Source: Chrysomallon squamiferum
Taxonomy: Eukaryota; Animalia; Mollusca
Direction: 5' to 3'
NCBI GenBank assembly: GCA_012295275.1
Contig: CM022672.1
Coordinates: 15,314,001-15,378,000, forward strand
DNA length: 64,000 nucleotides
Position numbers and translations under genes: made by a program. Under the pieces are notes generated by a model that saw nothing but the letters and a program-made list of their open reading frames with translations, was not told the origin of the DNA and made no database searches. This document shows positions 1 through 34,173 of this stretch, in pieces (the first letter of the stretch is position 1; each line of letters begins with the position of its first letter).

Positions 1-248
1 CACTATTAAAAAATTCCACACGGTTCACATGGACTATATAATATAACAGTGCTACAACAGCGACGCTGGCAGATTTATTGTGATTTGTTCTATACACTGA
101 CAGAAAATAGACGTTCTCTTTGTGGCATTTTGATAGAATAATCAAATCGCGCCTATCTTTCCATGACGTCACGTTTTCAGTTAGGTTTGAGTGATAACAG
201 GCTCAGGCTCACATATGCCATCTCATTGCAAGAATAGGGATATAGTAA
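1..248. mobile_element. Unrelated sequence (probable end of an inserted element) interrupting the large exon of CARD-gene copy A
   Basis: Homology to copies B/C (gtgaattcttctcatgttcat) begins abruptly at ~249, in the middle of their exon 4. Bases 1-248 have no counterpart in B/C, lack a polypyrimidine acceptor, are CpG-richer (TGACGTCA at 165-172) and end in AATAGGGATATAGTAAA. The family cannot be identified from this fragment. Confidence 0.45.
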
Positions 249-2484
249 AGTGAATTCTTCTCATGTTCATTGTAATCTATAATCTGCCTGGATGTTCTCA
301 AAACAAGCAGGATAATCAGACAGCTCAAATTAAATCCGATTCTACTAAGTCTTTGCAGGTATCAAGTCCAGATAGAAAAAGACCTATGAATGAAAGTGGC
401 GGTGTTGTGGTCAGACCTGTTCTACAGGCAGGCAATTTTACGAATGAAGTTCCAACCGTTCCAATTCCAGACTACCAGTATATGCATGGTCACTCACCAG
501 TTACAGACACATCTGAGATCTGTTACCCACCAAGTGTTCCAGGGGGAAACACAGTAGATGGAGACAGAATATCAGAATTAAGGGACTACAACAGAAACAT
601 TATTAACCAGTTCACGGCTTCAAATACAGAATCAGATGAAAATAATTTAATTGTGCCAGTGATATCCAAAGACAGAACATTGCTAGCATGTGAGGAAAAG
701 AAGATTAATATGTCTGAGAGTGTAAATGGAAATAGTGACAGAAGTACAAAGATAGAAGATAATGATGAATTGCAGCATTCCTGTCATTTACCACATTTCA
801 ACGTTCTGTTATCTTCTATGAGAGGACAAGGTAAAAAATATAGATCATCTTCTTTAGAGAGTTCTCATGACAATGGACTGAATGATAATAGTCTGGTTCA
901 GTCCACAGAAAAAATTTTCAGATTGAAAGTATAAATGAAATGAATGAATATTTGAATAATTCTACTGAATATTTTAATAAAGATATTATGGAGCCATATC
1001 TTCAAATTACTACTAATAGTTCTGTTGCTGATGATGAAAAATATGTCCCTTTGTCATTAACTGATTTTATAGATCCTCTAAATATTCAGAAACCTGCTGT
1101 AGAAAGAGCTACAAGTAAATTAAAAGTTGCTGAAAAGTTACTAGAAAATAAAACTGAAACACAAGCAAGAAGCTCTTCAGATGAATTCATGACCAAGACG
1201 TCATTTCTGTTGAACAAAAATGAAGAGAACACAGATAAAATGACAGTAAAGACTGAAGATACAAATGATTTCTCTGAATTCCACAAAAAAGATCAGCAAC
1301 TGGCAATAAATAATAGTGCTGTGAAGATAAATGCTACAGAGATAACAAGAACCCACTATGGTTACAAAGGAAGGAGTAAAACAAGATAAACTACCACTGC
1401 AGTCAAATTCAACTGAATCTTTAACATCTGGAGATGAAGGAAAATATACTCTGCCTGATAACATAAATGAAGGCCAGTGAATTGATTGAAGATGAAAGAA
1501 AAGATACTGTGCCTCATAAAATAAATGAAGCCAGTGCACTGATTGAAGATGAAAGAAAGATTCTGTGCCTGACATCATACGTGAAGTCAGTACATTGATT
1601 GAAGATGAAAGAAAAGATACTGTTCATGATAACATTAATGAAGCCAATTCACTGACTGAAGATGAAAGAAAAGATGCAGTACCTGATAACATGCATGAAA
1701 CCAATGCATTGACTGAAGATAAAGGAAAAGATGCTGTGCCTGATAACAATGAAGCCAGTGCATTGATTGAAGATGAAAGAAAAGATACTGTGCCTGTTCA
1801 TGATGAAGCCAGTGAACATTAAAGGAAATGAAGTACCCAAGAAGCCAACATTGACTGAAGATGAAAGAAAAGATGCAGTACCTGATAACATGCATGAAAC
1901 CTGAAGATGAATTGAATTGAAAAGATGATAACATGCATGAAGCCAGTGAATTGACTGAAGATGAAAGAAAAGATACTGTGCCTGATAACATGCATGAAGC
2001 CAGTGAATTGACTGAAGATAAAGGAAAAGATGCTGTATCTGATAACATGCATGAAGCCAGTGAATTGATTGAAGATGAAAGAAAAGATACTGTGCCTGAT
2101 AACATGCTATGACTGAAGATAAAGGAAAAGACCTGATAACATGCATGAAGCCAGTGAATTGACTGAAGATGAAAGCCAATGAATTGATTGAAGATGAAGG
2201 AAAAGATACTGTACCTGATAACATGCATGAAAAAGCCAATGCATTGATTGAAGATGATGAAAAAAGATACTGTGCCTGATAACATGCATGAAGCCAGTGA
2301 ATTGACTGAATAAAGGAAAAGAAGCATGCATGAAGCCAATGCAATTGAAGATGAAAGAAAAGATGCTGTGCCTGCGTCCATCTGATTGAAGATGAAAGAA
2401 AAGATACAAATCATTGATTATCAGATTCACTGATTACAGTTCAATTATAAAATAGTAAATGAAATATTTTTAAGTCTGAAATGA
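249..2484 (+). pseudogene. MAVS-like CARD gene copy A, 3' part of large exon 4, frameshifted
   Basis: ORFs 263-934, 940-1389 and 1565-1822 are consecutive, frame-shifted pieces of the protein seen at 11947-15196 and 23766-25760. There is a 1-nt loss at ~912 and many indels in the repeat. The 5' exons are not in the window. Confidence 0.75.
1430..2410 (+). repeat. Coding minisatellite, 57-bp unit (EDERKDTVPDNMHEASELI), ~17 units, many garbled
   Basis: Repeated gaagatgaaagaaaagatactgtgcctgataacatgcatgaagccagtgaattgatt. Confidence 0.92.
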
Positions 2485-7815: not shown

Positions 7816-7903
7816 GGTTTTCGTTTGTGGCGGAATATCATTAAGAAACGTTGTCATTAAAGTACTATAAATAGTTATTTGGACTTTTATCGTTATTTCA
7901 CTT
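7816..7903 (+). promoter_or_regulatory. Putative core promoter of copy B: IRF-core-like motif, TATA box, initiator-like sequence
   Basis: GGTTTTCGTTT (reverse complement contains AAACGAAA) at 7816-7826, TATAAATA at 7866-7873, TTCACTT ~30 nt downstream, and a strong donor AG|GTAAGT at 7999. All are conserved in copy C. Confidence 0.55.
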
Positions 7904-7998
7904 ATTTGGGTCTTTAATATTTTAAAATATTGGTGTAATTTTTAAACGTTTCTCTATACATTTCTTTCGACCAACGAACATAAATATCAGATGAAAAG
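7895..7998 (+). other. Putative 5' leader exon 1 of copy B, ending in ATGAAAAG (uORF start)
   Basis: Lies between the TATA box and the consensus donor AAG|GTAAGT. The 5' end is approximate. Confidence 0.55.
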
Positions 7999-8355
7999 GT
8001 AAGTTTGTATTTATACACGAGTTTCAGTGTCAAAGTGACAGTAGTATCGACTATCGTAGTCACCGTCACAGTAATGTAATTCATCGTTTAACAAACTCGA
8101 CCCTGTCATTGATACTTTTAAAATCAAAATCTAACTTTCTTATAATGACTGAATAAATAAGTAAAAGAAAAGTAAAAAGGTGAATTAGTTTAGGAACATC
8201 CAAGAAGAGTAGAAAATTTCAACTGAAACCGAATAACCAATAATACAAATAAATCATAGTATTTCATTTATCTACAACTAACTTTCCCTTATTTATTGAT
8301 AATCAGTCATGCGATGTAAGATTAGGTAAAATAAATCAAACAATACTTCTTGAAT

Positions 8356-10664
8356 TTAAACCCGACCGTCTCAGATTTTTTTATGAAACTTGGTATACTT
8401 GTTGACTGGGATCCCACAGACCCAAATCATATTTTAAGCCAATCGGACCAGTGGTGTTTGAGATATTGTCAAAAATGGGCATGACCACCAACCTTTGAAC
8501 CTCATATCTCAGGAACTATTGGGCCAATCTTTATAAAATTGGTATTGTTCAAAAGGCAATATGACAAGGGATTCCCAAATCTGGGTCACTTACCTTTTGA
8601 CCTTTGTTATGACCTTGAAATTCACGGTGAAATTGACCGGGTGTAATATTTGTTGTTTAGCCACAATCAGGATTTTAAAAAATGCACGTCCATAAAAATA
8701 ACACCTTTTCTGCCATTAACATCTGATTAACTAAAACCTGAATGATCAGTTCTGGATGATAGGAATCACCATCTCTCTTGATTACCGAGTAAGACATTGT
8801 AGGCCTACATGTATGCATAAAGTTTAAATAAATTTGAAAGAACTAGGTGTTTCTGATGCTTAGCCTTATCACCATCTTTGTTTCCAATGCTCACTGTATC
8901 CTTTATTCCCAGACACATTCTACTGTTCTCGTCACTTTCATAAAATTGGACTATTTCCTCCTTTAATTCATTTGACAAAACGTTCCCTTGTTTCTTATCA
9001 CAGGGGGATAGAACCCCTTTCTCTTTCTTCACCACACAGCTTTTTTTCACAAGGTAATTCGTTGTTTCAAATTCATTCATTGTCCTTTCAATGGTAAAGA
9101 GTGACAAAGTCAAGATTTGCACATGTTCTGCATAGGATTCGGACTTGTTGAATTTCTCTTTTAACTCCTGAAATATGTTCCTGAAAAAATGAAGGTCTGG
9201 TTTTTCTGATGAGTCAAGGTCACTTTCAGGAGAATGAAGCAGAATATCATAGACTGTTTCAAGATGTCATTTTAATGTTACTGTAGCTGATGCTAGTTTT
9301 TTCTGTCCTCTCATTCGTTTACTGGAACGTGCTTGAAAGTTCTTGTTCATGATACTCTTGATGTCCCGTGTTTTGATCACACTTCGAAGTGTGAGGAGTT
9401 CAACTTCCTCAGTTTTCCATACACTTTGCAACAACTCCTTTTTGGTATGATGGTGTTGATAACACACATTTTCAGGAGAGTAAAAGCTGCAGTTAGCCCT
9501 GGAAGAAATAAGGATTTTCAGTATTGCCTGCACCTTCAATTCAATAGAACAAAGTCGGTACTTTCCTAAATATCAAATCAAACCCAGAAACCCTTTCAGT
9601 TAAGTTAAGTAGGTCATAAAATGGCAGCAGAGTACATGCGTCATTGCCAAAGGCCCACAAGCCTTGGGCATTTAGGTCAAACTTTTCAAGTATAAATCAC
9701 AATTTATCAAGGAGAAGGTAGACCTTGTTCATACTCTGTGCCAAAGACTGGATGTACAAATACATTATGCAGTACATCACTCGATGAAGTCTGATTTCAG
9801 ACTGATTTGTACTGTTGTTGACTGAAACCTTGTTCAAAACCATTGGTCAGGCCACATGACATGATAAAATGACTTAATAGGTTTTATGAAGAAAACATAA
9901 TGCTTACATATCAACATCTGTCATTATGTCCAACTTGATAGCTTCAGATTGTCAAAGAAATGCAGATGAAGAAACGTCTTTGTCTTAAACTTCTAGTTGT
10001 CATGTGCTCAATGGGGATTTCACCAGGGGATTTCAAGGAGTTCCTGACATGCCTGTTAACCCTTTGAGCCTTATTTTCGTAGAACATGTCATGCCATTTG
10101 GCATCTTTTCATATCCTTCAGGCATTCCTTCAAAAATGTCAGGTGGGTTTTAACTCCAAAGATGAGTTTTTGATCTCAGAGAAGTGAATACATGTAGAAA
10201 ATGTACATTGTAATGCATTGTATCAATCCTCCATCCAGGAATGCATGTTTTAAATCTATATTATGGCTAAACAACAAATATTACACCTAAGAAACATTTA
10301 TATGTTTTAATTAACATGTGGGAGATTCAATTTCAATAAAGGTCATCTCAAGGTCATGCGATCCACAGGTCAGTTTCAAGGTCATAACAGGTCAAAAGGT
10401 CAGTGAACCCAAAATTTTCCTTGTCATATTGCCTTTTCAACAATACCAATTTTATGAAGATTGGCCCAGTAGTTCCTGAGATATAACAGTTAAAAGGTTG
10501 GTGGTCGCAAAATTTGGGGGCCATATAAATCCAAACCACTGGTCTGATTGGCCTAAAATTTCAGATTTGGTGCTGTGGGATTCCAATCAACAAGTATACC
10601 AAGTTTCATAAAAATCTGAGTCAGTCGTGTTTAACCCAATGGGTGATTTGACACGGAATGACCC
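8356..10664 (-). mobile_element. Defective Sola2-like DNA transposon with long terminal inverted repeats
   Basis: Absent from copy C. 8356-~8690 is an inverted repeat of ~10240-10635. The intact terminus reads GGGTCATTCCGTGTCAAATC on the - strand. The transposase remnant 8805-9122 (EIVQFYESDENSRMCLGIKDTVS...QKHLVLSNLFKLY) resembles the Sola2 transposase N-terminal region. Confidence 0.75.
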
Positions 10665-10695
10665 TTTTAATAACTTTTGCATTTTCTCGCTGTAG

Positions 10696-10833
10696 ATGAA
10701 TCCTCTAGATGACTATTTTGTTGTCAATGAAGCCAAGAAGAAGCTTGTTCGTATAAATTTTCGAAAACTTTTGGATCCAGAATGTCCAAACATAATAGAC
10801 AGTCTGGCAGATTTTCTTAGTCCAAGAGAAATG
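10696..10833 (+). CDS. MAVS-like CARD gene copy B, exon 2 (CARD first half)
   Basis: tag|ATG...GAAATG|gt, 138 nt, open: MNPLDDYFVVNEAKKKLVRINFRKLLDPECPNIIDSLADFLSPREM. Same length and splice sites as copy C. Confidence 0.85.
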
Positions 10834-11138
10834 GTTTACTTTTTAAATTTTTTACTATAATTAACTATTTATTTTATTTCATTTTCATTTATTAACTTTC
10901 TTTTTTATTTATTTATTTTAATTTTAAATCTTTTTTATTGATATTATATTTGAATATAAACAAATCTGTTTCAATTTTTATATTTATTTTTTAGTTATTT
11001 TTTTTTTTTTTTTTTTTTTTTTAGATAACCCAGTAATTTCTTTATAGAACCTTTAACCTTTCTTCGACTGGTAGATATATAGCCCTTTTGTAATAATGAC
11101 CTGAAACAGTAATAAATTAATATTTCTGATTATCTTAG

Positions 11139-11290
11139 GATGAACTAAAAAAAAGACATCAAAACCATGCCAATCAAGATGTCATGGGAAAATTGTGGGA
11201 CTATGCCATGAAACGAGATTGATTGGTGGATAAAAATGGAAAAAGTACTGAGAGAAGAAGGTTATCTAAAAGAAGCTGATATACTGGCAG
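11139..11290 (+). CDS. MAVS-like CARD gene copy B, exon 3 (CARD second half); 1-nt insertion gives TGA at 11220-11222
   Basis: ttag|GAT...GCAG|gtat, 152 nt versus 151 nt in copy C. Reads DELKKRHQNHANQDVMGKLWDYAMKRD, then the frameshift, then WWIKMEKVLREEGYLKEADILA. Confidence 0.8.
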
Positions 11291-11914
11291 GTATACATCA
11301 TCATATACTTCTATTATAAATGATTTGAAATAAGTTGAAAATGAAGAGAAATAGAACATATATATTGATGAATCTGTATTTCTTAAATTGGTTTAGAAGA
11401 GAATGAGTTAACAGTCAGTTTTATCAATTTAATTGAAGATTAAGTTCACCATGTTAAAGAATAAAAATGTATATATACATATATAAATGATTATTTAGAG
11501 ATTTCTCTTAACAACAATGAATATGTATATGCTTGTATACATGCTATCATACATATACACACAAACATACATATGTACAGACTGCAGAGATGATTTCCTG
11601 GAAGAAAAATACTGATCAATGTTCTTACGTATCAAAAGTGTTACACAAAAAATAGTTTTAATGCATATTGCAGACAATTATATTGTTAAAATTTAGTTTC
11701 ATTAATGTTGTTTTGAGAAACACATTTTTGGAAATTGGAAAATTTCAAAAAAAGTTTTGTATCCTTAAAATAGGGCTTTATTTAAAAGTCTGATTCAGTT
11801 AGTGGATAGTGTCCCATATATATGTCTCTCTGTGTGTGTATGTTTCTGTGTTTATGTATATGTATATGGATATGTAAGTTATGTTATGTTTATTTATGAA
11901 GTTTTGAATTCCAG

Positions 11915-14900
11915 AGCATACTGTTTCCACAGAACATCAAGCACAGTTGCAAGCACTTCCTCATCCAGCACAACTTAATGAATCACATGTGCAGAATGCA
12001 CAACAAAACCTTTCAGCTGTTTATCAACACCAGTATCCTACAGATAATAAACCTCCTCCTTATCATGAGGCTGTTTTACAAACACAGCCTTATTCCTTAC
12101 GAGATCAACAAACATCTGAACCAAATGTCCAAGGATGTGTGAACCCAGAGGTTTATAACATGCACAGGCAGCCAGTGATAGTAGAACAACCGCTGCAAGA
12201 ATATCTACAACAGCAGCCATGTCCTGGTCAAACTCAGAACAGTGAACAACATTTTATTACTGATCAAGCTAAACAGTTAGAAAAAATCCAACATCACAAG
12301 TCTGTTAGTTCAAAAGACTCTCAGAGTCAGGAAAATATTTTCAAAGAGAAGGAAGAAAGTGTCACAAAGAACAATGGTAAAGTATCTAATTACAGTGTTC
12401 TTAATGAGAGACAGAAGAACAAAACAGTTGATGCTGAAAGCAGATCATCAGTTGCTAGCAAATCTTTATCTGGTGGAGGCCAGTTATCTCATATTGCATC
12501 AAAACAGCAGAATGTTTCTAGAAGTGGTGAAAATGGTGTGTTATCTCAAGATATTACACTTTTTAATGAAAACAATACTAATACTTCTACTAGTGGTAGT
12601 AAAGGAAAAGTATCTTCAGTGAATTCTTCTCATGTTCATCCTAATCTAAATCTGCCTGAATGTTCTCAAAACAAGCAGGATAATCAGACAGTTCAAATTA
12701 AACCCGATTCTGCTAAGTCCGTGCAGGTATCAAGTCCAGATAGAAAAACACCTATGAATGAAAGTGGCAGTGTTGTGGTCAGACCTGTTCTACAGGCAGG
12801 CAATTTTAGGAATGAAGTTCCAACCGTTCCAATTCTAGACTACCAGAATATGCATGGTCACTCACCAGTTACAGACACATCTGAGATCTGTTACCCACCA
12901 AGTCTTCCAGGGGGAAACACAATGGATGGTGAGAGAATATCAGAATTAAGGGAATACAACAGAAACACTAGAAGCCAGTTCACAGCTTCAAATACAGAAT
13001 CAGATGAAAATAATTTAACTGTGCCAGTGATATCCAAAGACAGAACATTGCCAGCATGTGAGGAAAAGAAGATTAATATGTCTGAGAGTGTTAATGGAAA
13101 TAGTGACAGAAGTACAAAGATAGAAGATAATGATGAATTGCAGCATCCCAATCATTTACCACATCTCAGCATTCTGTTATCTTCTGTGACAGAACAAGAT
13201 AAAAAATGTAGATCATCTTCTTTTGAGAGTTCTCATGGCAAAGAACTGAGTGATAACATTCTAGTTCAGTCCACAGAAGAAAGTTTTCAGATTGAAGGTA
13301 TAAGTGAAGTGAATGAGTATTTGAATAATTCTACTGATAATTTTAATAAAGATATTATGGAGCCATATCTTCAAATTACTACTAATAGTTCTGTTGCTGA
13401 TGATGAAAAAAGTGTCCCTTCATCATCAATTGATTTTACAGATCCTCTAAATATTCAGAAACCTGCTGTAGAAAGAGCTACAAGTAAATTAAAAGTTGCT
13501 GAAAGGTTAGAAGAAAATAAAACTGAAACACAAGCAAGAAGCTCTTCAGATGAATTCATGACCAAGACGTCCATCTCCATTACAGAACAAAAATGGTGAG
13601 AAAATGACAGTAAAGACTGAAGATACAAATGATTTCTCTGAATTCCACAAAAAAGATCAGCAACTGGCAATAAATAATAGTGCTGTGAAGATAAATGCTA
13701 CAGAGATAACAAGAACCCACTATGGTATTACAAAGGAAGCAATAAAACAAGATAAACTATCACTGCAGTCAAATTCAGCTGAATCTTTAACATCTGAAGA
13801 TGAAAGAAAAGATACTGTACCGGATGCCATAAATGAAGGCAGTGAATTGATTGAAGATGAAGGAAAAGATACTGTACCTGATAATATAAGTGAAGTCAGT
13901 ACATTGATTGAAGATGAAAGAAAAGATACTGTGCCTGATAACATACATGAAGCCACTGGACTCATTGAAGATGAAAGAAAAGATGCTGTACCTGATAACA
14001 TGCATGAAGCCAATGAATTGATTGAAGATGAAAGAAAAGATACTATGCCTGATAACATAAATGAAGGCAGTGAACTGATTGAAGATGAAGGAAAAGGTAC
14101 TGTGCCTGATAACATAAATGAAGCCACTGGATTCAGTGAAGATGAAAGGAAAGATACTGTGCCTGATACCATAAATGAAGCCTGTGCATTGATTGAAGAT
14201 GAAAGAAAAGATGCTGTGCCTGATAACATAAATGAAGCCAGTGAATTGATTGAAGATGAAGAAAAGATACTGTACCTGATAACATAAATTGATTGAAGAT
14301 GAAGAAAGAAAAGATGTACCTGATAACATGCATGAAGCCAGTGCATTGCCTGCCTGATAACATAAATGAAGCCAGTGCATTGATTGAAGATGAAAGAAAA
14401 AGATAACTGATGTCAGTACATTGATTGAAGATGAAGGAAAAGATATAACATAAGTGATGTCAGTACATTGATTGAAGATGAAGGAAAAGATACTGTGCCT
14501 GATAACATGCCTGATAACAGTACATTGATTGAATGAAAAAACATAAATGAAGCCAGTGCATTGATTGAAGATGAAAGAAAGGATACTGTGCCTGATAACA
14601 TAAATGAAGCCACTGGACTCATTGAAGATGAAAGAAAAGATACTGTGCCTGACATCATAAGTGAAGTCAGTACATTGATTGAAGATGAAAGAAAAGATAC
14701 TGTTCATGATAACGTAAATGAAGCCAATACACTGATTGAAGATGAAAGAAAAGATACTGTGCCTGATAACATACATGAAGCCAATGAATTGATTGAAGAT
14801 GAAAGAAAAGATACTATACCTGATAACATGCATGAAACCAGTGAATTGACTGAAGATAAAGGAAAAGATGCTGTACCTGAAATGACTGAAGATAAAAGAA

Positions 14901-15196
14901 AAGATACTGTGCCTGATAACATGCATGAAGCCAGTGAATTGATTGAAGATGAAAGAAAAGATACTGTGCCTGATAACATGCATGAAGCCAATGAATTGAT
15001 TGAAGATGAAAGAAAAGATACTGTACCTGATAACATGCATGAAGCCAGTGAATTGATTGAAGATAAAGGAAAAGATATTGATACACTTGGTAGATCAGCC
15101 ACCACAGTTACTGAGCAGCCATCTAGATACAGATCATTGATTAGCAGTTCAATTACCAAAAAAATAGTAAATGAAATATTTTTAAGTCTGAGATGA
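11915..15196 (+). pseudogene. MAVS-like CARD gene copy B, large exon 4 (disordered region plus acidic repeats), frameshifted as assembled
   Basis: Acceptor ttccag| at 11914 is in phase 1 and in frame with ORF 11947-13599. There is an extra C at ~13571 versus copy C and further indels at 14260-14545. ORFs 13604-14287 and 14561-15196 continue the protein. Confidence 0.75.
13796..15078 (+). repeat. Coding minisatellite, 57-bp/19-aa acidic unit, ~22 units
   Basis: Period of 57 (e.g. gattgaagat at 14941 and 14998). Translates as IEDERKDTVPDN(M/I)(H/N)EA(S/N)EL. Confidence 0.95.
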
Positions 15197-15656
15197 ACTT
15201 ATTTATTGTAGAAGGATCTGTAAAGATTTCTCAGTCAGGCTGTAAACAAATAATGAAAGAAAGAAAGAATTATTAACATTAAATATTTACTGATTTAAGA
15301 ATATTATTCTGTTTTTGTAATAGCTTTTAAAAAAGATATATATATTTTGAAGATTTTATCTATTATGTCAGTATTTCTAAACTATGATGTTAGTATTTAC
15401 AGTGATTGCATAATTACAGATGTTTATTGCTTTATAATACTGAAGATTGTACCTAATGTTTGAACATAAAATGTTACATTAATATTCACAGTGATAACAT
15501 AATTACAAATTTTTTTTAAATCTGTTTTTAAGGAATTGGAAGAGGAATGTTAATAATATTTATAAAAAGGAATGATTTACATGTGTTAACTAAAAACATC
15601 ATGGTATCTAATGTAAAGAATTTATAATGAATGGCTTTCCTAATTACTTCTTACAG

Positions 15657-15718
15657 TTGTACCTTGTGCTTTATTAAGTATACAACAGAGTACAGCTTCA
15701 AGTACAGACTTCAAGTGA
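15657..15718 (+). CDS. Putative small terminal exon of copy B
   Basis: Same acceptor and sequence as 2963-3024 and 26085-26146. Confidence 0.4.
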
Positions 15719-15776
15719 GCTGAAAAGTCTTCATTTTATCTCACCATTTTTCATTTTCTTCCATCAGCTGTGAATA

Positions 15777-15777
<1 letters not shown>

Positions 15778-15844
<67 letters not shown>

Positions 15845-15870
15845 GATAGATAGATAGATAGATAGATAAA
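15778..15870. repeat. (AAT)n(GATA)n compound microsatellite
   Basis: Directly visible. Shorter versions lie at ~3080-3125 and ~26200-26255. Confidence 0.9.
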
Positions 15871-17945
15871 TAAAAATAATCTGAAAGGAAATCATTATTT
15901 TTAATAAATATGATGGTGGAAAGATAAATGCTGGACAAAAACAAAAAAAGTTATTATTTAATTCTTTGAGGAGAGAAAAAGATTTTAAAAATTGGAAAAG
16001 AAAAGAATTATAATAGTAATAATTTCATTTATCATCATTAGCTTTTGACACTTGTCATTAGATAACTGATCTTACCATTGATGGAAAAAGAAACAGTTTT
16101 AGTAATTGTATCTAAATATTCAGAGTTTGAACTTGGAAATTTTGATGTCAAAATAACCAGAAATTCATGAAACTGTACTTAATATGGGAAATTAAAAAAC
16201 TAGTATTTTCAGCATCAGTGGATTATTACTTCATAATGTGCTGAGTGACGTTTCACTGACTTTTTTGTGCACTATCAGAAATGATTAATATTTTGTTCCA
16301 CTGTTGATTAAAAGAGTATCTGATTACCTAAATATGTTGTAAGATGATTAAAATAAATTTTCGTTTCAGAAATACTCAAAAACTGCCCTTACATAATTTA
16401 TCTTACAGTTTTCTGTATTGTTTTTTGTTTTGTTTTTTAGTTTAGTAACTTATTCATTCCAATTGAATTAACTTAAATATTTTTAATTAAATTTAAATAT
16501 TTTCTCAACACAATGTTGCCTTCTGAATTTATAATATCTTATTACAGAAATTTATTTTTTCACAGAGATGTAATATATATATTTATTTAATCATATGCCA
16601 GATATTGCATTGGCATTAAATTTATATTTATTCCTTGAAATCTTTATTTTTTTTATTATTATTTTTCAAAACCATCATTTAATTTTCATTAAACATCAAC
16701 TTGCTTTTGAAGTAACTATCATTGTAATTATGGTTATTTTTTAATTTTATGATTATTATTATTATCATTGTTTGAATATAGTTTTTATGTTATTTATAGA
16801 TTATGTCTCTAAAATGTTATATTTTCAAAACTTAATTCTAAGTATCTCAAATTATTTTTGTTTTGTTGATGTTGTTATCGTTTTCATTTCTTTACAAAGT
16901 GCTTTGTTGAAGAAATTTCCCTTTCTTGCTTTGATTTTACTGTTATATATTAATCATAACTAATTGCTGTTTATTTTATTTTCAATTAGATATTAAAATA
17001 ATTTCCAGTGATAGAACCCAGTGATTGAAAAGTTCCAGCAAAACACAATTTGTTAATCTAATCTGGTTTCTTATTAATATAATAAAACGTTTTCAATACT
17101 GGGGTTTTTTTTCTTTTTTTTTATTTTTTTTTTTTTTCATCTTTTTCTACTTTTTTTTTTTTTTTTTTTTTTATCTTCTATTTCTTTGTCATTTACGACT
17201 TCTTTTCATCTTTTTCCATTTTTTTTCTCATAATTTCTGTTTTCTTCCAGGTTTTCTACTTTTTTCTTACTTTTTAGTTTCTACTACTTTACTTTTACTT
17301 TAAGTTTCTTTATTATTATTATTATTCTTTTGATGGTAATATCACTAAACAAAAATATATCACATCTATATAACAAATTTATAACAGATCAAGTGCTTTG
17401 TTAATTAAAACAGTTATTTTGTTTTAGTCAAAGAATATAAAATACTCTTTTCCATCTGATAATGATTCTAATCTTCAAACTCGAATTCAGAGCAAATGAG
17501 AAATGATTGTGTTATTTTAAAGTGTAATATATATTCTGAATTTTCAAAAATAAATAGATGGAAAATATATCTCTTGCATTATAGTAAATCAGAAGTCTTA
17601 ATTTTTGTGTCTAACCTTTTTAAATCAAACGGATATATAATCGTACAACTTAAAAACAATTTTCATTTTCAAAACAAACTTTGCAGTAGTTAATGTAATA
17701 ATTATCATGATGCATTTACTATTGTATTTATACATTTGTATAAATCTGTATTTAGTAATCGAGAAAAACAAATAGATTATGAGAAAAGCACCAACCTCCC
17801 TGAAAAATAACTTCCTACAGAATTTTAAGTAATTTTCTCAAGATTATGTTATTCATCGTGAATTGTACCAGGACAAAAATCTTGCCTACTATGGTTGTAA
17901 AATAATAATGCATAACATTGTAATCTATATACTGGTATATATATA

Positions 17946-17977
<32 letters not shown>

Positions 17978-18285
17978 TAAACAAAACTTAATCTCAATAT
18001 ATAACACTTTGTTAAAAGTCTGCGTGTGTATCTGGGTTTAAAGTTACATGTTTATTCAAGAAAATAATTTACTTTATTACTGTAATTTTTAAATATTTAT
18101 TCATTTACTATGAATTGATTACACTAAAGCTACAGTATACAGACCTTAACCTTTCCCTCTGGATTCTCTTTATCTGTGGGTTTTATGCACATATAAAATT
18201 ATTATAAAACCGACCTTCGCTCCCTACCAGACTGTGATCACGTAATGATAAATTAAATACTCATTTACAAGCAAATAACTGTTTT

Positions 18286-18315
18286 GAAAGTGAAAGCAAA
18301 ACATAGTTTCACTTT
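18286..18315. promoter_or_regulatory. Inverted pair of ISRE/IRF-type motifs
   Basis: GAAAGTGAAAG (18286-18296) and AGTTTCACTTT (18305-18315). A homologous pair lies at 27861-27890. Only the second motif survives at 5188-5198. Confidence 0.45.
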
Positions 18316-19885
18316 TGCCTTCTTGGAAAGACAAATCGTATATTGGAACATTACCCATATAATTGTAAAGGTTGTTTACAAAGAACCATTGACTGGATAT
18401 TTGGTTTATTCATTGTGTGTGTTATTATTTTCACAGAGAAAATATAAAAGTGACTATAAGAAACATACATTGACAGACAAATTTATAATAACACTCATCC
18501 AAACACAAATACACATACAAGAACACATTTGTTAGAAAATTTCATAAAAAAGAAATTAATCGCATTTAAGGAAATCATTGCAAGTGATATAAAGATCAGT
18601 TTTCCAAATGCAATCTTCACTTTCCAGTTTTGTTCCAAGCAAACTTGACAGTAAAAAAATTCAATGATCTGTATGTGCCAAATAATGCCCAAATTTCCTT
18701 TCCAATTTTCCATATCACGTAAACAAAGATCGGAAAGTGGATTCTCAGGAACAGGTTCTCATTTCCTCTTATAATGTGTGGTAAAGATCTGCATTATCAG
18801 ATGGGCTAACAGCTTCAACATTTTGTTTAATATATAAATGTGTGAGTGTTTGTGCTGTGTCTGTGTCTGTACTATTCAATGCCGTTACAAAATGTGGCAG
18901 AATAATCCATCTAGATGGTAAGGTTCACTTACAAGGAAAATATCATTTTGAACTGTGAAAGAATAATAGCTGTACGATTATGGTCACAACTGTTAATTCT
19001 CCACTAGTTTTAGAAAAATATATATATATAAAAATAATAATAATAATAATAAATAATGAAATAATGAAACCTTTCTACCCAAAGGCTTGATAAAAAGGAA
19101 ATGAATTTATTATCATATTCTGGGCTGTGCTGGGCACTTCAACTAGTAACAAATAAAATAATAAATAGAATAAATAAAATAATAAAATAATAAATTAAAT
19201 AAATTTAAAAATAGAATAAAAAAGACAACAAATTTTGTTAACATTTACGAGATATATTAAATATCAGATTATTTTACTATCAACATTTAAAGCATGACTG
19301 TAGCAATGGTTTTAAAAAATATATTTATAAAAATAATACAGGCTTCAAAATAAGATTAAAACATTTTAAACCAAGTTTTTAACAAATGAACCTTAACGAC
19401 CACTTTTTAGCCTCACCACAGTACTGCAACAATTTTAAGTTACTTTTGTACACACATTTCAGAATAGTAAAGTAAGTTACATACAACATATTCTGGATAA
19501 TGTACGTATAAATGTGTGTGTTAGTGTAATGTTTGCAGGCATGCAGTGATATGTAATAACTGTTTTGAAGCCTGTTTTATAATAACGTAAATCACTGGGG
19601 GGCTTTAATTAATAATTTTGTATAATTAAACATAAGGTATTTTCTGAAACACTACAATACTGTTTCTTACAAAAGTTGGCTGATGATTTTAGTTTTAACT
19701 TTTTAACTAATTTGAGATAAGACCTCTACATTTCTAAAAAATAAAATAGAATAAAATAAATAAATAAATAATATAAGAAGATAAATAATAACAATAATAA
19801 TCATTCATCTCTGTGTCATAAGTTGGCTAATAATTTAAGTTTTAATTAACCTTTTAACTATTTTGAGATACGATCTCTATATTTC

Positions 19886-19918
<33 letters not shown>

Positions 19919-20554
19919 TAAATAAATTTAAAAAGTATATAATAAATAATAAAAACAATAATAATCTTTCATTTCTGTCATAAACATTATTAACCCTATT
20001 AAAAATAATAATAAATTAAAAAAAAAAAAAAAAAAAATGAAATGTCAGTAACATTAAACTTTCCTTTCAGAGTGTATTAATTTTTAGCATTAAATATAGT
20101 TTATTTCTTCTTCCTACTTTTTTTTTTTATTTTTATTTCATGGTTTATTTTATATTTTAAGTATATATTTAACTTTTCGTCTCAATCGTGCAGGATAAAG
20201 GGTTCGGTACCTGTACAATCAGAGACACTCACTAGCAAACAGATTAATTTTGGATGGAAAATATCAGTACTCTCACGCAGTAGCGTATTACTGATGTAAT
20301 GAATTTGTAACAAAATATTTAAATCATATGTGAAGTAACCTAATTGGAAAGAATAAAATATGAATCCGAAAATATTTGATTTTAATGTGATACAAGTTGT
20401 TTAATGCGTCTGCTTTCTTCCTTCATGTCTACACAGGTTTGTTTAGGTTTGCGTATGATTATTTTTGGAGACTGTGTTTAACCTAGACAGCCTACAAACC
20501 ATCTCTTTTTATTCTGTAATTAAAGGGTAGTTCATTAACTGGATTTAGTACTAC

Positions 20555-20593
<39 letters not shown>

Positions 20594-20881
20594 TAACTTT
20601 TGATTTTTATATATGTTACAGTTATAATGTTGGTGCTGGGACAACCGATTGTTAGAACGCGCAGCGCAATCTTAATATACAGGGTTTTTCGTTTTTTTTT
20701 TTCTGTTGTAAGTGATGTTTGTTTGTTTATTTTGTTCCATAAAAAATATAAATATTACACATTCTGTGTTTATAATGTTCTTTTATTCATCCTTTGCAGC
20801 GCTTCACATTAATGATTAAATTAGCCATTATTTATATTACAACCACAAAAAAAAAAAAAAAAAAAAAAAATAAGTTTAACT

Positions 20882-20970
20882 GGTTTTCGTTTGTGGCGGA
20901 ATATCATTAAGAAACGTTGTCATTAATGTACTATAAATAGTTATTTGGATTTTTATCGTTATTTCACTTA
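20882..20970 (+). promoter_or_regulatory. Putative core promoter of copy C
   Basis: GGTTTTCGTTT at 20882-20892, TATAAATA at 20932-20939, TTCACTT downstream. The leader exon ends ATGAAAAG|GTAAGT at 21063. Confidence 0.55.
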
Positions 20971-21521
20971 TTTTGGCTTTAATATTTTAAAATATTGGTG
21001 TAATTTTTAAACGATTCTATATACATCTCCTTCGACCAACGAAAATAAATATCAGATGAAAAGGTAAGTTTGTATTTATACACGAGTTTCAGTGTCAAAG
21101 TGACAGTAGTATCGACTATCGTAGTCACCGTCACAGCAGTGTAATTCATTCATTGTTTAACAAACTCGACGCTGTCACTGATTCTAAAATCAAAATCTAA
21201 CTTTCTTATAATGACAGAATAAATAAATAAAAGAAAAGTAAAAAGGTGAATTAGTTTAGGAACATCAAAGAAGAGTAGAAAATCTCAACAGAAACCGAAT
21301 TTCCAACAATACAATTAAATCACAGTATTTCATTTATCTACAACTAAATTTCCCTTATTTATTGGTAATTAGTCATATGATGTAAGATACGGCAAAAATA
21401 AATCAAACAGTACTTCTTGAATCATCTTTCAGTTTCTTTGTGTTAATTCTTTTGGTCCCAGATTTTAGCATTTGTTCGGCCTGTAATCTAATTTTATTAC
21501 TTTTTTTCTCTCTCCCTTTAG

Positions 21522-21659
21522 ATGAATCTTCTACACGAATATTTTGATGTCAGTGATGCCAAGAAGAAGCTTGTTCTTAAACATTTTCTAAAACTGTTGC
21601 AACCAGAATGTTCAAACATAATAGACAGACTGGCAGATTTTCTTAGTCCAAGAGAAATG
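21522..21659 (+). CDS. MAVS-like CARD gene copy C, exon 2
   Basis: Long polypyrimidine tract, ttag|ATG, 138 nt, phase 0: MNLLHEYFDVSDAKKKLVLKHFLKLLQPECSNIIDRLADFLSPREM. Confidence 0.88.
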
Positions 21660-22022
21660 GTTTTCTTTTTATTTATTTTTATATAATTAACTATTTTATT
21701 TTATTTAAATTTTATTTTATTAACTTTATTTTTTTTTTTTTATTTATTTATTTATTTATTTTTTTTTATTTTAAATCTTTTTTTTATTGATATTATATTT
21801 GAATGTAAAAAAATATGTTTCAATTTTTATATTTATTTTTTAGTTATTTATTATTATTTCTTTTTTATTATTATTAACTTTTTTTTTTTTTTTGAATTTG
21901 TATTTTTTTTTAATATTTTGAATCGAACTTATTATTAATGTTTAAAAAAAAATTGCCATTAATATTTAATTGACTAATTCTTTAATTTAAAAGAGAGATT
22001 GACATTAATTTGTTGTGAAATA

Positions 22023-22743
22023 CTGAGGTATCACGACTTCCAAGTTTTTCGAGTTATGAGCAGCTGCCTGGTCAATTGTTTTCTTTGAGTTGTGAGCCAA
22101 AATCCAAGTTACAAGCAAGCTTCAGATACGCCGCTGCTAGTTGGCAGAATGAACAACATTACATCCAGCCAGCATCCCACGTGTCACTCGTTTATTTCAC
22201 GTGGTTACCTCGCCACGGAAGCATCTGTGTTGTGTTGTACTCGCGTTTTGTGCAGTGCTTTGTCAAATTTCTTTTTTCTGGTCATGGATCCTAAGAAAGT
22301 GAGAGCAAAGGACAGTGCTGAGAAGAAGAAGCGGATGATGTCCTTTGAATTAAAGATTGAATTCATAGAAAAATATGAGTGAGGTGTGCATTTAGTTGAC
22401 TTGGCTAGGCAGTACAAGCATAGTACTTCTACAGTATGCACCATACTGAAGCAGAAGGAGTCAATAAAGGCTATAACTCCAGCCAGAGGAGTTAAAATAA
22501 TTTGTCTGATCTCCAAGATAAAAATACTTTAAAAAACCAATTTATTTCTTTATATTCTTTTATTTTATTTTTATTTGTCATGTATAAATACATGTTCCTT
22601 ATTATAAAAAATAAAAAAATCGGGGTGGTTTTTAGGGGGCTGAATCAGATTAATCAGTTAGGAAAATTGATTTGATATACAAGCAGATTGAGATACGAGC
22701 TCAGTCACGAAATGAATTAAACTCGTAAGTCAAGGTACCAATG
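22023..22743 (+). mobile_element. Defective Tigger/pogo-family (Tc1-mariner) DNA transposon
   Basis: TA on both sides (22021-22022, 22744-22745). Degenerate TIRs CTGAGGTATCACGACTTCCAAG and CTCGTAAGTCAAGGTACCAATG. A CENP-B-type HTH remnant runs from 22284: MDPKK...KKRMMSFELKIEFIEKYE*GVHLVDLARQY...STVCTILKQKE. Confidence 0.85.
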
Positions 22744-22988
22744 TATTCTGCAATTCAAAATAGTTAAATAAAAGGAAAGACATAACTTTGCAAAAGATAC
22801 TGAATATCAGAAATAAAAGTTCAGCAATAATAATTATTCTCATAAAAAACAAAATTACTTACTTAAATATCGTTCAAAGATAACCCAGTAATTTCTTTAT
22901 AGAACCTTTAACCTTTCTTAGGGTGGTAGATATATAGCCCTTTTGTAATAATGAAACAGTAATAAATTGATATTTCTGATTATCTTAG

Positions 22989-23139
22989 GATGAACTAAAA
23001 ACCAGAAGTGATAACCATGCCAATCAAGATGTCATGAGGTCACTGTGGCACTATGCCATGAAACGAGATTATTGGTGGATAAAAATGGAAAAAGTACTGA
23101 GAGAAGAAGGTTATCTAAAAGAAGCTGATATACTGGCAG
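22989..23139 (+). CDS. MAVS-like CARD gene copy C, exon 3
   Basis: ttag|GAT...GCAG|gtat, 151 nt, phase 0 to 1, open: DELKTRSDNHANQDVMRSLWHYAMKRDYWWIKMEKVLREEGYLKEADILA. Confidence 0.88.
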
Positions 23140-23691
23140 GTATACATCATCACATACTTCTATTATAAATGATTTGAAATAAGTTGAAAGTGAAGAGAAA
23201 TAGAACGTATATATTGATGAATCTGTATTTCTTAAATTGGTTTAGAAGAGAATGAGTTAACAATCAGTTTTGTCAATTTAATTGAAGATTAAGTTCACCT
23301 TGTTAAAGAATAAAAATGTATATATACATATATAAATGATTATTTAGAGATTTCTCTTATCAACAATGAATATGTATATGCTTGTATACATGCTATCATA
23401 CATACACACACAAACGTACATATGTACAGACTGCAGAGATGATTTCCTGGAAGAAAAAAACTGATCAATGTTCTTACGTATCAAAAGTGTTACACAAAAG
23501 ATAGTTTTAATGCATATTGCAGACAATTTTACTGAACAAATTTAGTTTCATTAATGTTGTTTTCAGAAACACATTTTTGGAAATTGGAAAATTTGAAGAA
23601 AAGTTTTCTATCCTTAAAATAGAGCTTTGTTTAAAAAATCTGATTCAATAAGTGGATATACCATGTTTATATATGAACATTTAATTTCCAG

Positions 23692-25760
23692 AGCATAATG
23701 TATCCACAGAACATCAAGGACAGTCCCAAAGACTTCGTGAACCACCACAACTGCTCGAATCACATGTGCAGAATGCACATGCATTTACACAACAAAACCT
23801 TTCAGCTGGTTATCCAGCAGATATTAAACCTCCTCCTTATGAAATGGCTGTTTCACAGTGTTATTCTTTTCGAGCACAACAAACATTTCAACCAACTGTC
23901 CAAGGATGTATGAACCCAGGGGTTTATAACTCCAGAAGTATTGACATCCACAGACAGCCAGTGATAGTAGAACAACCACTGCAAGAATATCTGCAACATC
24001 AGCAATGTCAAGAGCAGCTTCCTGGTCAAACTCAGAACAGTGCACAACATTTTATTATTGATGACAGTGTAGTCGTCTCTGATCAAGCTAAACAGTTCGA
24101 AAAAATCCAAAGTCACAAGTCTGTTAGTTCAAAAGACTCTCAGAGTCTGGGTCTAAATATAGAAACATGTCAGGAAAATATTTTCAAAGAGAAGGAAGAA
24201 AGTGTTAGAAAGAACAACGGTAAAGTATCTAATTACAGTGTTCTTAATGAGAGACAGAAGAACAAAACAGTTGATGCTGAAAGCAGATCATCAGTTGCTA
24301 GCAAATCTTTATCTGGTGGAGGCCAGTTATCTCATATTGCATCAAAACAGCAGAATGTTTCTAGAAGTGGTGAAAATGGTGTGTTATGTCAAGATATTAC
24401 ACTTTCTCATGAAAACGATACTAATACTTCTACTAGTGGTAATAAAGGAAAAGTATCTTCAGTGAATTCTTCTCATGTTCATCCTAATCTAAATCTGCCT
24501 GAATGTTCTCAAAACAAGCAGGATAATCAGACAGCTCAAATTAAACCCGATTCTGCTAAGTCTTTACAGGTATCAAGTCCAGATAGAAAAACACCTATGA
24601 ATGAAAGTGGCAGTGTTGTGGTCAGACCTGTTCTACAGGCAGGCAATTTTAGGAATGAAGTTCCAACCGTTCCAATTCCAGACTACCAGAATATGCATGG
24701 TCACTCACCAGTTACAGACACATCTGAGATTTGTTACCCACCAAGTGTTCCAAGGGGAAACACAATGGATGGAGAGAGAATATTAGAATTAAGGGAATAC
24801 AACAGAAACACTAGAAGCCAGTTCACGGCTTCAAACACAGAATCAGATGAAAATAATTTAATTGTGCCAGTGATATCCAAAGACAGAACATTGCTAGCAT
24901 GTGAGGAAAAGAAGATTAATATGTCTGAGAGTGTTAATGGAAATAGTGACAGAAGTACAAAGATAGAAGATAATGATGAAATGCAGCATCCCAATCATTT
25001 ACCACATCTCAGCATTCTGTTATCTTCTGTGACAGAACAAGATAAAAAATATAGATCATCTTCTTTAGAGAGTTCTCATGGCAAAGGTCTGAGTGATAAC
25101 ACTCTGGTTCAGTCCACAGAAGAAAGTTTTCAGATTGAAGGTATAAATGAAATGAATGAATATTTGAATAATTCGACTGATGATTTTAATAAAGATATTA
25201 TGGAGCCATATCTTCAAATTACTACTAGTAGTTCTGTTGCTGATGATGAAAAATATGTCCCTTTGTCATTAACTGATTTTATAGATCCTCTAAATATTCA
25301 GAAACCTGCTGTAGAAAGAGTTACAAGTAAATTAAATGTTGCTGAAAAGTTAGAAGAAAATAAAACTGAAACACAAGCAAAAAGCTCTTCAGATGAATTC
25401 ATGACCAAGACGTCATCTCCATTACAGAACAAAAATGGTGAGAAAATGACAGTAAAGACTGAAGATACAAATGATTTCTCTGAATTCCACAAAAAAGATC
25501 AGCAACTGGCAATAAATAATAGTGCTGTGAAGATAAATGCTACAGAGATGTCAAGAGCCCACTATGGTATTACAAAGGAAGCAATAAAACAAGATAAACT
25601 ACCACTGCAGTCAAATTCAACTGAATCTTTAACATCTGAAGATGAAAGAAAAGATAATGTACCGGATGCTATAAATGAAGCCACTGCAGTGATTGAAGAT
25701 AAAGGGATGGACAAAGAAAATTTGCTTAGTCATGCTGAAGCTTTACAAATTAGCAAATGA
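23692..25760 (+). CDS. MAVS-like CARD gene copy C, large exon 4; exons 2-4 give a 785-aa open frame
   Basis: Acceptor ttccag| is phase 1 and in frame with ORF 23766-25760 (138+151+2069 = 2358 nt). Loss of one A near 25755 would extend the frame into the tail shared with copy B, to 25905. Confidence 0.85.
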
Positions 25761-26084
25761 CAGATATTCAGAGATAAACGAATCTATTGATACGCTTGGT
25801 AGATCAGCCACCACAGTTACTGAGCGTCCATCTAGATGCAGATCATTGATTAGCAGTTCAATTACCAAAAAAGTAGTAAATGAAATATTTTTAAGTCTGA
25901 GATGAACTTATTTATTGTAGAAGGATCTGTAAAGATTGTTAAAAAAAAAAAAAAAAATGAAAGAAAGAATTATTAACATTAAACATTTACTGATTTAAGA
26001 GTATTTACATGTGTTAACTAAAAACATCATGGTATCTAATGTAAAGAATTTATAATGAATGGCTTTCCTAATTACTTCTTACAG

Positions 26085-26146
26085 TTGTACCTTGTGCTTT
26101 ATTAAGTATACAACAGAGTACAGCTTCAAGTACAGACTTCAAGTGA
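26085..26146 (+). CDS. Putative small terminal exon of copy C
   Basis: The acceptor and exon are retained even though much of the preceding intron is deleted in this copy. Confidence 0.4.
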
Positions 26147-33193: not shown

Positions 33194-33668
33194 AAATAAT
33201 ATGTCAGCTACACACTTCATCATACATTCACTACTAACAATACAAATCTACAAAGGTGTCTAAATAGTATGTCAGCTACATACTTCATCATACATTCACT
33301 ACTAACAATACAAATCTACAAAGATGTCTAAATAATATGTCAGCTACATACTTCATCATACATTCACTACTAACAATACAAATCTACAAAGGTGTCTAAA
33401 TAGTATGTCAGCTACATACTTCATCATACATTCACTACTAACAATACAAATCTACAAAGATGTCTAAATAATGTCAGCTACATACTTCATCATACATTCA
33501 CTACTAACAATACAAATCTACAAAGATGTCTAAATAATATGTCAGCTACATACTTCATCATACATTCACTACTAACAATACAAATCTACAAAGGTGTCTA
33601 AATATTATGTCAGCTACACACTTCATCATACATTCACTACTAATGATGCAAGTCTACAAAGGTGTCTA
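33194..33668. repeat. Intronic minisatellite, 68-bp unit x7
   Basis: aaataatatgtcagctacatacttcatcatacattcactactaacaatacaaatctacaaagRtgtct repeats at 33194, 33262, 33330, 33398 and onward. There are no spacers. Confidence 0.95.
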
Positions 33669-34173
33669 ACCCACAAATACTACTGTTGCACAAACGCTGA
33701 AAACGATATTCTGTATCAGTTAAAGGCCGATTCACAATAATAAAAGTATCAGAAAAATTAATAAGTGGTAAATATCATATGTTTAGAGACTGTTATCAAC
33801 TTTATTTTAAAGATTTTCAAACATTCATGAAATTGATAAAAGTTAGTAACTGTAAATAAACTGTTTTCAACAACATAAATGATTTTAGTGTTAACAAAGC
33901 TTTGTTTTATCAGCTACAGTTCTCTAATATTAAATATATCCACAGGGTTTCTTTGTTAACTTATCAAATTTTGATATTTAAAAAAAAAAATGAATAAAAA
34001 ATAATAATAATAGTAATAATAATAATAATAATAATAACAATAACACAATAAAAAAATTAAAATAAATAAAAAAAAATTAAAAAAACGTAGGCCAGTGGCA
34101 AACAGAGCTCAGATGACAGAGTGAAAGGAAGGCTGGAAGTGATGGTGTTTATTTGAGGATGTTGCTATTTTAC

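What the first reader, a model, noticed from the sequence alone, without database searches (positions are those of the whole stretch)
7816..26146. Hidden tandem array of MAVS-type CARD genes with no visible membrane anchor
Seen: two short exons per copy (10696-10833 + 11139-11290; 21522-21659 + 22989-23139) are absent from the ORF track and splice in phase onto the long low-complexity ORFs. The joined N-terminus NF..LL.PEC.NIID.LADFLSPREM|DELK....HANQDVM..LW.YAMKRD.WWIKMEKVLREEGYLKEADIL aligns by eye with the human MAVS CARD ([74 protein letters not shown]). Shared positions include L(S/T)xR(E/D)xDxL(K/R), N(Q/R)D, (K/R)RxxW, LR and AD. As I recall it, vertebrate MAVS also has a phase-0 intron at RDQ|DRL, the same position as REM|DEL here; this needs checking. 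Known: MAVS is normally single-copy, with a CARD, a disordered motif-bearing region and a C-terminal mitochondrial TM helix. Inference: this is a lineage-specific family of at least three paralogous, possibly soluble MAVS-like adaptors or decoys in the RIG-I-like receptor pathway of an invertebrate.
Basis: partly seen in the sequence, partly recalled or inferred. Interest (0 to 1): 0.9.

Follow-up and report, generated by a model that had tools for sequence, protein, structure and literature searches.

The report
Anchorless CARD-like tandem genes in snail
A snail genome carries three tandem copies of a gene, two of them seen in RNA, whose protein has a likely CARD-type immune-signalling domain and a long, predicted disordered tail but no membrane anchor in the reading frames found, so it would likely act as a soluble damper of CARD signalling rather than as an ordinary MAVS.

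Summary
The gene is real. A ~12-kb unit occurs three times. RNA contigs join exon 2 to 3 and exon 3 to 4 (GT..AG) in 3 of 3 RNA runs laid, all from one study. Corrections: only two copies show the short exons. Copy A's exon 3 has a 1-nt insertion and a stop as assembled. The third copy is only the 3' part of the long exon. The host is a gastropod nearest Gigantopelta. No transmembrane helix lies in any frame found, and RNA contigs run past the stops. The CARD call is likely but unproven. Exon 3 alone gave death-fold leads in the ESM Atlas (CARD, CARD_2, DED, Death; 0.77-0.86). Exon 2 gave Gag-capsid leads (0.86-0.90). Pfam, PDB and homologue searches found nothing significant, and the spliced domain was never tested whole. 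MAVS membership is not shown: no anchor, no second death domain, no TRAF motifs. Best reading: a lineage-specific soluble CARD regulator or decoy. It matters because MAVS is reported missing in abalone and Aplysia.

The parts
249..2484 (+). Copy C: 3' part of the long exon only, with several frame changes, degenerate 57-bp repeats and the shared tail ending in a stop at 2482-2484; no short exons in the window
7866..7998 (+). Copy A TATA box (7866) and inferred non-coding exon 1 ending at a GTAAGT donor (7999); it holds a 3-codon upstream frame
   Evidence: sequence; transcription start inferred, not mapped
10696..10833 (+). Copy A exon 2: starts with the ATG, 46 codons, phase 0; first half of the putative CARD
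11139..11290 (+). Copy A exon 3: second half of the putative CARD; 152 nt, one extra base at 11221 gives a stop at codon 74 as assembled
   Evidence: no gap at the matching place is listed in 4 of 4 runs, but an A-type exon 3 contig was not identified
11915..15196 (+). Copy A exon 4: low-complexity tail with PPPY motif, acidic 19-aa repeats and shared C-terminal tail. The assembled frameshift at 13571 is absent from A-type contigs
   Evidence: (table 8 records 8, 16, 22, 30 have 0 gaps)
13795..15077 (+). 57-bp (19-aa) acidic tandem repeat in copy A; 51 D/E against 14 K/R in 152 aa; 4 of 22 unit spacings are not multiples of 3
20932..21063 (+). Copy B TATA box (20932) and inferred non-coding exon 1 ending at a GTAAGT donor (21064)
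   Evidence: the 217-letter loose end in X1 leaves 80 letters beyond exon 2, whose letters were not shown
21522..21659 (+). Copy B exon 2 (46 codons); predicted helices 12-25 and 33-41
22989..23139 (+). Copy B exon 3 (151 nt); death-fold leads in the ESM Atlas
23692..25905 (+). Copy B exon 4: S/E/N/Q-rich tail. Assembled stop at 25758-25760. Contigs of X3 and X5 carry two more bases at 25748, which by frame arithmetic leads to the shared tail and stop at 25903-25905 (834 aa)
17251..17404 (+). T-rich, stop-free hydrophobic stretch behind an AG acceptor (counterparts 4454-4620 and 26831-26998): a weak candidate anchor exon, judged non-coding, not tested with reads

Best explanation
This is a tandem family of spliced, transcribed snail genes encoding a likely CARD-type death-fold domain and a predicted disordered tail without a membrane anchor, which would likely act as soluble regulators (decoys) of CARD-filament signalling, most likely of the RIG-I/MAVS type. 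Shown: the exon structure, splicing of exons 2-3-4, transcription of A- and B-type copies, and the absence of a hydrophobic helix in the frames found. Inferred: the domain is a CARD and would join or cap filaments of a partner CARD. Lacking an anchor and TRAF motifs, it would not relay the signal. Its PPPY motif could recruit WW-domain ubiquitin ligases (motif function recalled). Paralogues with diverged CARD halves would differ in partner choice.
For: Splicing and transcription; 37 of 39 listed exon-4 variants in the contigs equal copy A's letter. Exon 3 Atlas leads: CARD 0.86 (28% of members), CARD/CARD_2 0.80 (90%/50%), DED 0.79 and 0.77, Death 0.77; 10 of the 10 best family hits share a family or clan; recognition 2369. 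Domain size (96 aa) and amphipathic stretches fit a six-helix bundle (inference). By eye, a tryptophan and a leucine-x3-glycine-tyrosine pattern late in exon 3 resemble RIG-I/MAVS-type CARDs (recalled, untested). No TM. Contigs run collinearly over both stop positions: X3 record 23 bridges 25760; record 24 covers 25903-25905 and 30 letters more, at depth 27, while X3 has zero depth in intron 3 bins. No TRAF2 or TRAF6 motif in the tail (0 seen; shuffles give one or more in 37% and 40% of 500). Oyster MAVS without its TM failed to bind RIG-I CARDs (PMC5557890, passages). CARD-only INCA caps caspase-1 filaments (PMC11874512, passages). TM-less MAVS1a blocks IFN-beta (PMC8306335, passages).
Against: No test was run on the whole spliced domain. 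All Atlas scores for exon 3 are under 0.9; its top two hits are unnamed bacterial clusters; a third of shuffled proteins also get clan agreement. Exon 2's best Atlas hits are Gag capsid clusters at 0.90-0.86, higher than any CARD hit. No Pfam CARD hit for either exon at E<=10; no PDB CARD hit; 0 relatives among 1.84 billion representatives at E<=0.001. pN/pS between A and B in the two exons is 0.104/0.078 (Fisher p=0.62), so no purifying selection is detectable. Truncated MAVS1b activates rather than inhibits (PMC8306335), so lacking an anchor does not force a decoy role. The PPPY motif arises in 4% of shuffles. No partner, induction or function was tested.
Confidence: 0.4

Rival explanations
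1. The domain is a death fold of another class (caspase-, NLR- or BCL10/ARC-like CARD, or a DED/DD), and the proteins are adaptors or inhibitors in apoptosis or bacterial sensing, unrelated to RLR signalling.
For: The Atlas leads for exon 3 span CARD, DED and Death within 0.09 score units, and the best CARD cluster carries PF00619, not CARD_2. CARD plus a low-complexity tail, and acidic repeats as in copy A, recall BCL10 and ARC/NOL3 (recalled).
Against: The by-eye resemblance and the recalled intron phases favour the RIG-I/MAVS type; one lead cluster has CARD_2 in 50% of members.
Confidence: 0.25
2. It is a divergent MAVS descendant that lost its anchor and works as an activating soluble adaptor in gastropods.
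For: The layout (one N-terminal domain plus long disordered tail) resembles vertebrate MAVS (PMC11103948, passages). No MAVS was found in five abalone proteomes or in Aplysia (PMC9334734, passages), and both papers allow for a highly divergent homologue. All three copies end in an amphipathic 11-mer (moment 0.59-0.60 for A and B against a tail 95th percentile of 0.47), which might bind membranes.
Against: No TRAF2/6 motifs; the one pLxIS-like match lies at B's assembled end, which contigs contradict. Oyster MAVS needs its TM. The host's own genome was not available to look for a separate MAVS or CARD-bearing RLRs.
Confidence: 0.15
3. The N-terminal domain is not a death fold; it may derive from a Gag capsid C-terminal (SCAN-like) domain or be a lineage-specific helical domain.
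For: Exon 2's first Atlas hit is 0.90 with 182 shared features (Gag_p30 12%, Gag_p24_C 11% of members); the next are Gag_p24_C 81% and Gag_p30 40% at 0.86. No significant CARD hit anywhere.
Against: Shuffled proteins reach 0.9 in 4-10 of 100 cases, and the first hit's families are on about a tenth of members. The exon begins at the initiator with no upstream capsid segment. The domain is split by an intron, unusual for domesticated Gag genes (recalled). Exon 3 points to the death-domain clan. No viral relative of exon 2 was found (0 of 45 pattern matches confirmed).
Confidence: 0.13
4. These are ordinary duplicated MAVS genes whose TM exon was missed.
For: Each copy is followed, 1-2 kb on, by an AG acceptor and a hydrophobic stop-free stretch with basic residues after it.
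Against: The entry phase from that acceptor differs among the three copies and copy C has a stop before the hydrophobic part. Such stretches are common in this T-rich DNA (11 on + and 23 on - in 24 kb of background; 8, 8 and 3 in the spacers). RNA contigs read over the stops. No second death domain as in mollusc MAVS.
Confidence: 0.07

Closest known systems
Mollusc MAVS (Crassostrea gigas CgMAVS; PMC5557890, passages)
   Same: N-terminal CARD-sized helical domain in a mollusc (here only likely a CARD).
   Different: CgMAVS has a Death domain after the CARD and a C-terminal TM needed for RIG-I binding; reported as a single homologue in oyster and scallop (PMC11103948). Here: neither feature, a 690-aa or longer low-complexity tail, three tandem copies.
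Vertebrate MAVS and its truncated splice forms MAVS1a/1b (PMC8306335, passages)
   Same: One CARD followed by a disordered region; truncated forms can inhibit (1a) or activate (1b). Intron phases in the CARD are recalled to be alike, unchecked.
   Different: Here the anchorless form is encoded by separate paralogous genes, the tail is long, and TRAF2/TRAF6 motifs are absent.
CARD-only decoys such as INCA (PMC11874512, passages)
   Same: Arise as duplicates (recalled) and act by binding CARD filaments without signalling.
   Different: They are short caspase-1 relatives without a long tail or acidic repeats (recalled).
Helicase-less RIG-I/MAVS-type CARD genes of Aplysia (LOC101858480, LOC101846979; PMC9334734, passages)
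   Same: Gastropod genes with IPR031964-type CARDs and no helicase.
   Different: No sequence relationship was tested; one has two CARDs; tails and copy number were not examined.
BCL10 and ARC/NOL3 (recalled)
   Same: CARD plus low-complexity tail; ARC has an acidic repeat tail and inhibits.
   Different: No sequence match found; other pathways.

Membership tests
CARD / death-fold superfamily | Profile match to a CARD or death-fold family | tested here: inconclusive
   Each exon alone: no Pfam hit at E<=10, no PDB hit; Atlas leads 0.77-0.86 for exon 3. Whole domain not tested.
CARD / death-fold superfamily | Six-helix Greek-key fold | tested here: inconclusive
MAVS | CARD of the RIG-I/MAVS (CARD_2) type grouping with MAVS | not testable with these tools
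   No reference CARD sequence could be fetched for a tree; one Atlas cluster with CARD_2 in 50% of members at 0.80.
MAVS | C-terminal transmembrane tail anchor | tested here: not met
   Max KD19 0.53 (B) and 0.89 (shared tail); contigs run over the stops. A rare isoform is not excluded.
MAVS (mollusc type) | Death domain after the CARD | tested here: not met
   0 Pfam families for the 691-aa exon-4 frame at E<=10; FoldIndex negative in 12 of 13 windows starting at residue 101 or later.
MAVS | TRAF-binding and pLxIS motifs in the tail | tested here: not met
   0 TRAF2 and 0 TRAF6 pattern matches in the tails; one pLxIS-like match only at B's assembled end. Patterns are recalled; mollusc motifs may differ.
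MAVS | Intron position and phase shared with MAVS genes | not testable with these tools
   Here phase 0 after codon 46 and phase 1 at the domain end; the MAVS positions are recalled; two searches found no paper to check.
MAVS | Binds RLR CARDs, forms filaments, activates NF-kB/IRF | not testable with these tools
   Needs bench work.
Gag capsid C-terminal / SCAN-derived genes | Profile or structural match to Gag_p24_C, Gag_p30 or SCAN | tested here: inconclusive
   Atlas 0.86-0.90 for exon 2; no Pfam hit; no PDB hit.

The most novel reading that the evidence does not exclude
These genes are the missing gastropod MAVS: a MAVS lineage that lost its mitochondrial anchor and Death domain, expanded in tandem and diversifies its CARD surface, so that RIG-I-type signalling in these snails runs through soluble, paralogue-specific adaptors.
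Probability: 0.17. Interest if true: 0.8.

Novelty: new variant of a known kind. Interest (0 to 1): 0.5.

Why it matters
Two genome surveys report no MAVS in gastropods (abalone, PMC11103948; Aplysia, PMC9334734) and both say a divergent homologue may have been missed. A gene whose CARD-like domain is split over two short exons, each half invisible to Pfam, shows one way such a gene could be missed. It gives a concrete candidate to test. If it is only a decoy or another death-fold adaptor, it is a modest addition to the many expanded mollusc immune families. No description was found in the searches (listings only; open-licence library).

Tried and rejected
No whole genome is held, so other copies, a separate MAVS and RLRs could not be sought. 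Homologue searches were blank: exon 3 against longer proteins (5 candidates, 0 scored), against 1.84 billion representatives (0), in metagenome contigs (0 of 222); exon 4 frame (0 of 7085); exon 2 profile in viral contigs (0 of 45). Pfam hits of the acidic repeats (TcdB_N, T4SS and others, all below cut-offs) were rejected as composition effects. PDB hits at E 0.7-5 (SNX14, PTPN21) were rejected as chance. AlphaFold of each exon alone was uninformative; fold searches gave nothing above noise and list no death-fold entry among 50 rows. Folding the two exon peptides as a complex gave 'no answer' (score 0.04); this is not evidence either way. Positive selection on the CARD exons: A and B differ at 28 of 289 sites against 54 of 983 in alignable intron parts (p=0.014), but pN/pS is not significantly above 1, the first 130 codons of exon 4 are as diverged, and the intron parts were picked by me; patchy gene conversion explains it as well. 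ISRE-like matches upstream had no chance control and were not used. Three look-ups of earlier findings returned nothing.
Full report
Setting. The window is AT-rich animal DNA (GC 22-36% per 2 kb). No whole genome is held. The neighbouring minus-strand gene (30648-63475) is rhotekin. One exon matches Gigantopelta aegis at 97% and Haliotis at 95%. Over the exons from 39.7 kb to 31.2 kb the match is 78-100% to Gigantopelta and 61-91% to Haliotis. The host is therefore likely a gastropod close to Gigantopelta. I did not identify the species.

The array. Self-comparison shows a unit of about 11-12 kb repeated three times. Copies A and B each have a TATA box, a short exon ending in GTAAGT, two short coding exons and one long exon. 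Copy C is only the 3' part of the long exon (249-2484); bases 1-248 match nothing else in the window, and tblastn finds the short exons only in A and B. After copy B the spacer repeats to about 29260, but no further promoter or first exon follows.

Reading frames. Copy B splices in phase into 785 codons. Copy A as assembled stops at codon 74 because exon 3 has one extra base at 11221. It has a second extra base at 13571 and broken repeat units.

RNA evidence. Five runs hold the stretch, four on record as RNA, from two studies. I laid X1, X2, X3 and X5 on 22870-25935; all are contigs. In 3 of 3 RNA runs the loose end before exon 3 equals the end of exon 2, and a GT..AG joint links exon 3 to exon 4; X5 lacks the joint. 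All three RNA runs are from one study, the short side of the joint has 21-24 letters, and the likeness threshold was 88. Of the 40 variant rows shown (74 more not shown) I used 39, dropping one outside the aligned range: 37 of 39 equal copy A's letter, 11 also equal copy C's, 2 match neither. A 24-nt gap also matches A. So A-type exon 4 is transcribed. Four records spanning the place of A's 13571 insertion have no gap, so that frameshift is likely an assembly error or a private allele. The exon 3 insertion is unresolved. No gap is listed there in any run, but the single exon 3 contig in X1 is identical to B and that in X2 differs at 7 letters (A differs at 12); bin depths equal those single records. 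Exon 3 thus varies among runs, or contigs mix paralogues. One loose end in X3 resembles copy C's entry into the repeat, a hint only.

The C-terminus. No frame found has a hydrophobic helix. Contigs in X3 and X5 carry two more bases at 25748, which would move B into the tail shared by all three copies (834 aa). X3 contigs run over both stop positions, one ending 30 letters past the shared stop. A hydrophobic stretch behind an AG acceptor follows each copy. Its phase differs among copies, copy C has a stop, and similar stretches are frequent in background, so I judge it non-coding.

What the N-terminal domain is. Only single exons were searched, which halves the domain and lowers sensitivity. 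Pfam, PDB, profile and homologue searches gave nothing significant. The ESM Atlas placed exon 3 near CARD, CARD_2, DED and Death clusters at 0.77-0.86, behind two unnamed bacterial clusters at 0.87 and 0.86. It placed exon 2 near Gag capsid clusters at 0.86-0.90. The tool calls scores under 0.9 leads only. Half-domain models were uninformative. By eye, and from memory only, the helix spacing fits a CARD and resembles RIG-I CARDs about as well as MAVS. I put a death fold at about 85% and the RIG-I/MAVS type at about 60%; these are judgements, not results.

The tail. It is S/E/N/Q-rich, predicted disordered in 12 of 13 windows from residue 101 on, with no Pfam family, no TRAF2 or TRAF6 pattern and one PPPY motif kept in A and B. 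Copies A and C carry an acidic 19-aa repeat; B has about two units. No relative was found among 7085 candidates.

Mechanism. I commit to a soluble CARD regulator. The domain would bind or cap filaments of a partner CARD, and without anchor or TRAF sites would damp the signal. This rests on analogy. Oyster MAVS needs its TM to bind RIG-I (PMC5557890, abstract and passages). INCA caps caspase-1 filaments (PMC11874512, passages). MAVS1a inhibits, although MAVS1b activates (PMC8306335, passages). Nothing about function was tested here.

Comparison and novelty. It fails three MAVS features that could be tested (anchor, mollusc Death domain, TRAF motifs), so it should not be filed as MAVS. Whether it descends from MAVS is open. 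Lophotrochozoan RLRs swap N-terminal domains by exon gain and loss (PMC8998645, passages), so a free-standing RLR-derived CARD is equally possible. Abalone and Aplysia surveys found no MAVS (PMC11103948; PMC9334734; passages), which gives the bolder reading its value. Supplements of these papers were not read and may list related genes. Verdict: a real, expressed, lineage-specific family; likely CARD; new variant of a known kind; interest 0.5.

Noticed in passing
window 30648-63475 (-): Rhotekin gene (HR1, anillin and PH type), 12 or more exon matches to Gigantopelta and Haliotis proteins; useful as a synteny anchor.
   Followed up: partly
window 8356-10634: Insertion in copy A intron 1 bounded by ~270-nt inverted repeats (82% alike), absent from copy B; likely a DNA transposon remnant. 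Two internal minus-strand frames had no significant Pfam hit.
   Followed up: partly
window ~21900-22878: About 1-kb insertion in copy B intron 2, absent from copy A; looks like a transposon remnant by eye.
   Followed up: no
window 33194-33669: 68-bp tandem array (about 7 units, 94-96% alike) in a rhotekin intron.
   Followed up: no
window 7991-7998 and 21056-21063: Exon 1 ends in an ATG that would open a 3-codon upstream frame stopping just inside exon 2 and overlapping the main ATG; possible translational control.
   Followed up: no
window 11224-11289 and 23073-23138: The last 22 codons of exon 3 are identical in A and B while the first 27 differ at 12 bases; suggests a gene-conversion tract.
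   Followed up: partly
window 15164-15196, 25873-25905, 2452-2484: All three copies end in the same amphipathic 10-11 residue motif, a possible short binding helix.
   Followed up: partly
window 1-248: Unrelated sequence abuts copy C in the middle of the long exon; an insertion or a break, continuing beyond the window's start.
   Followed up: no
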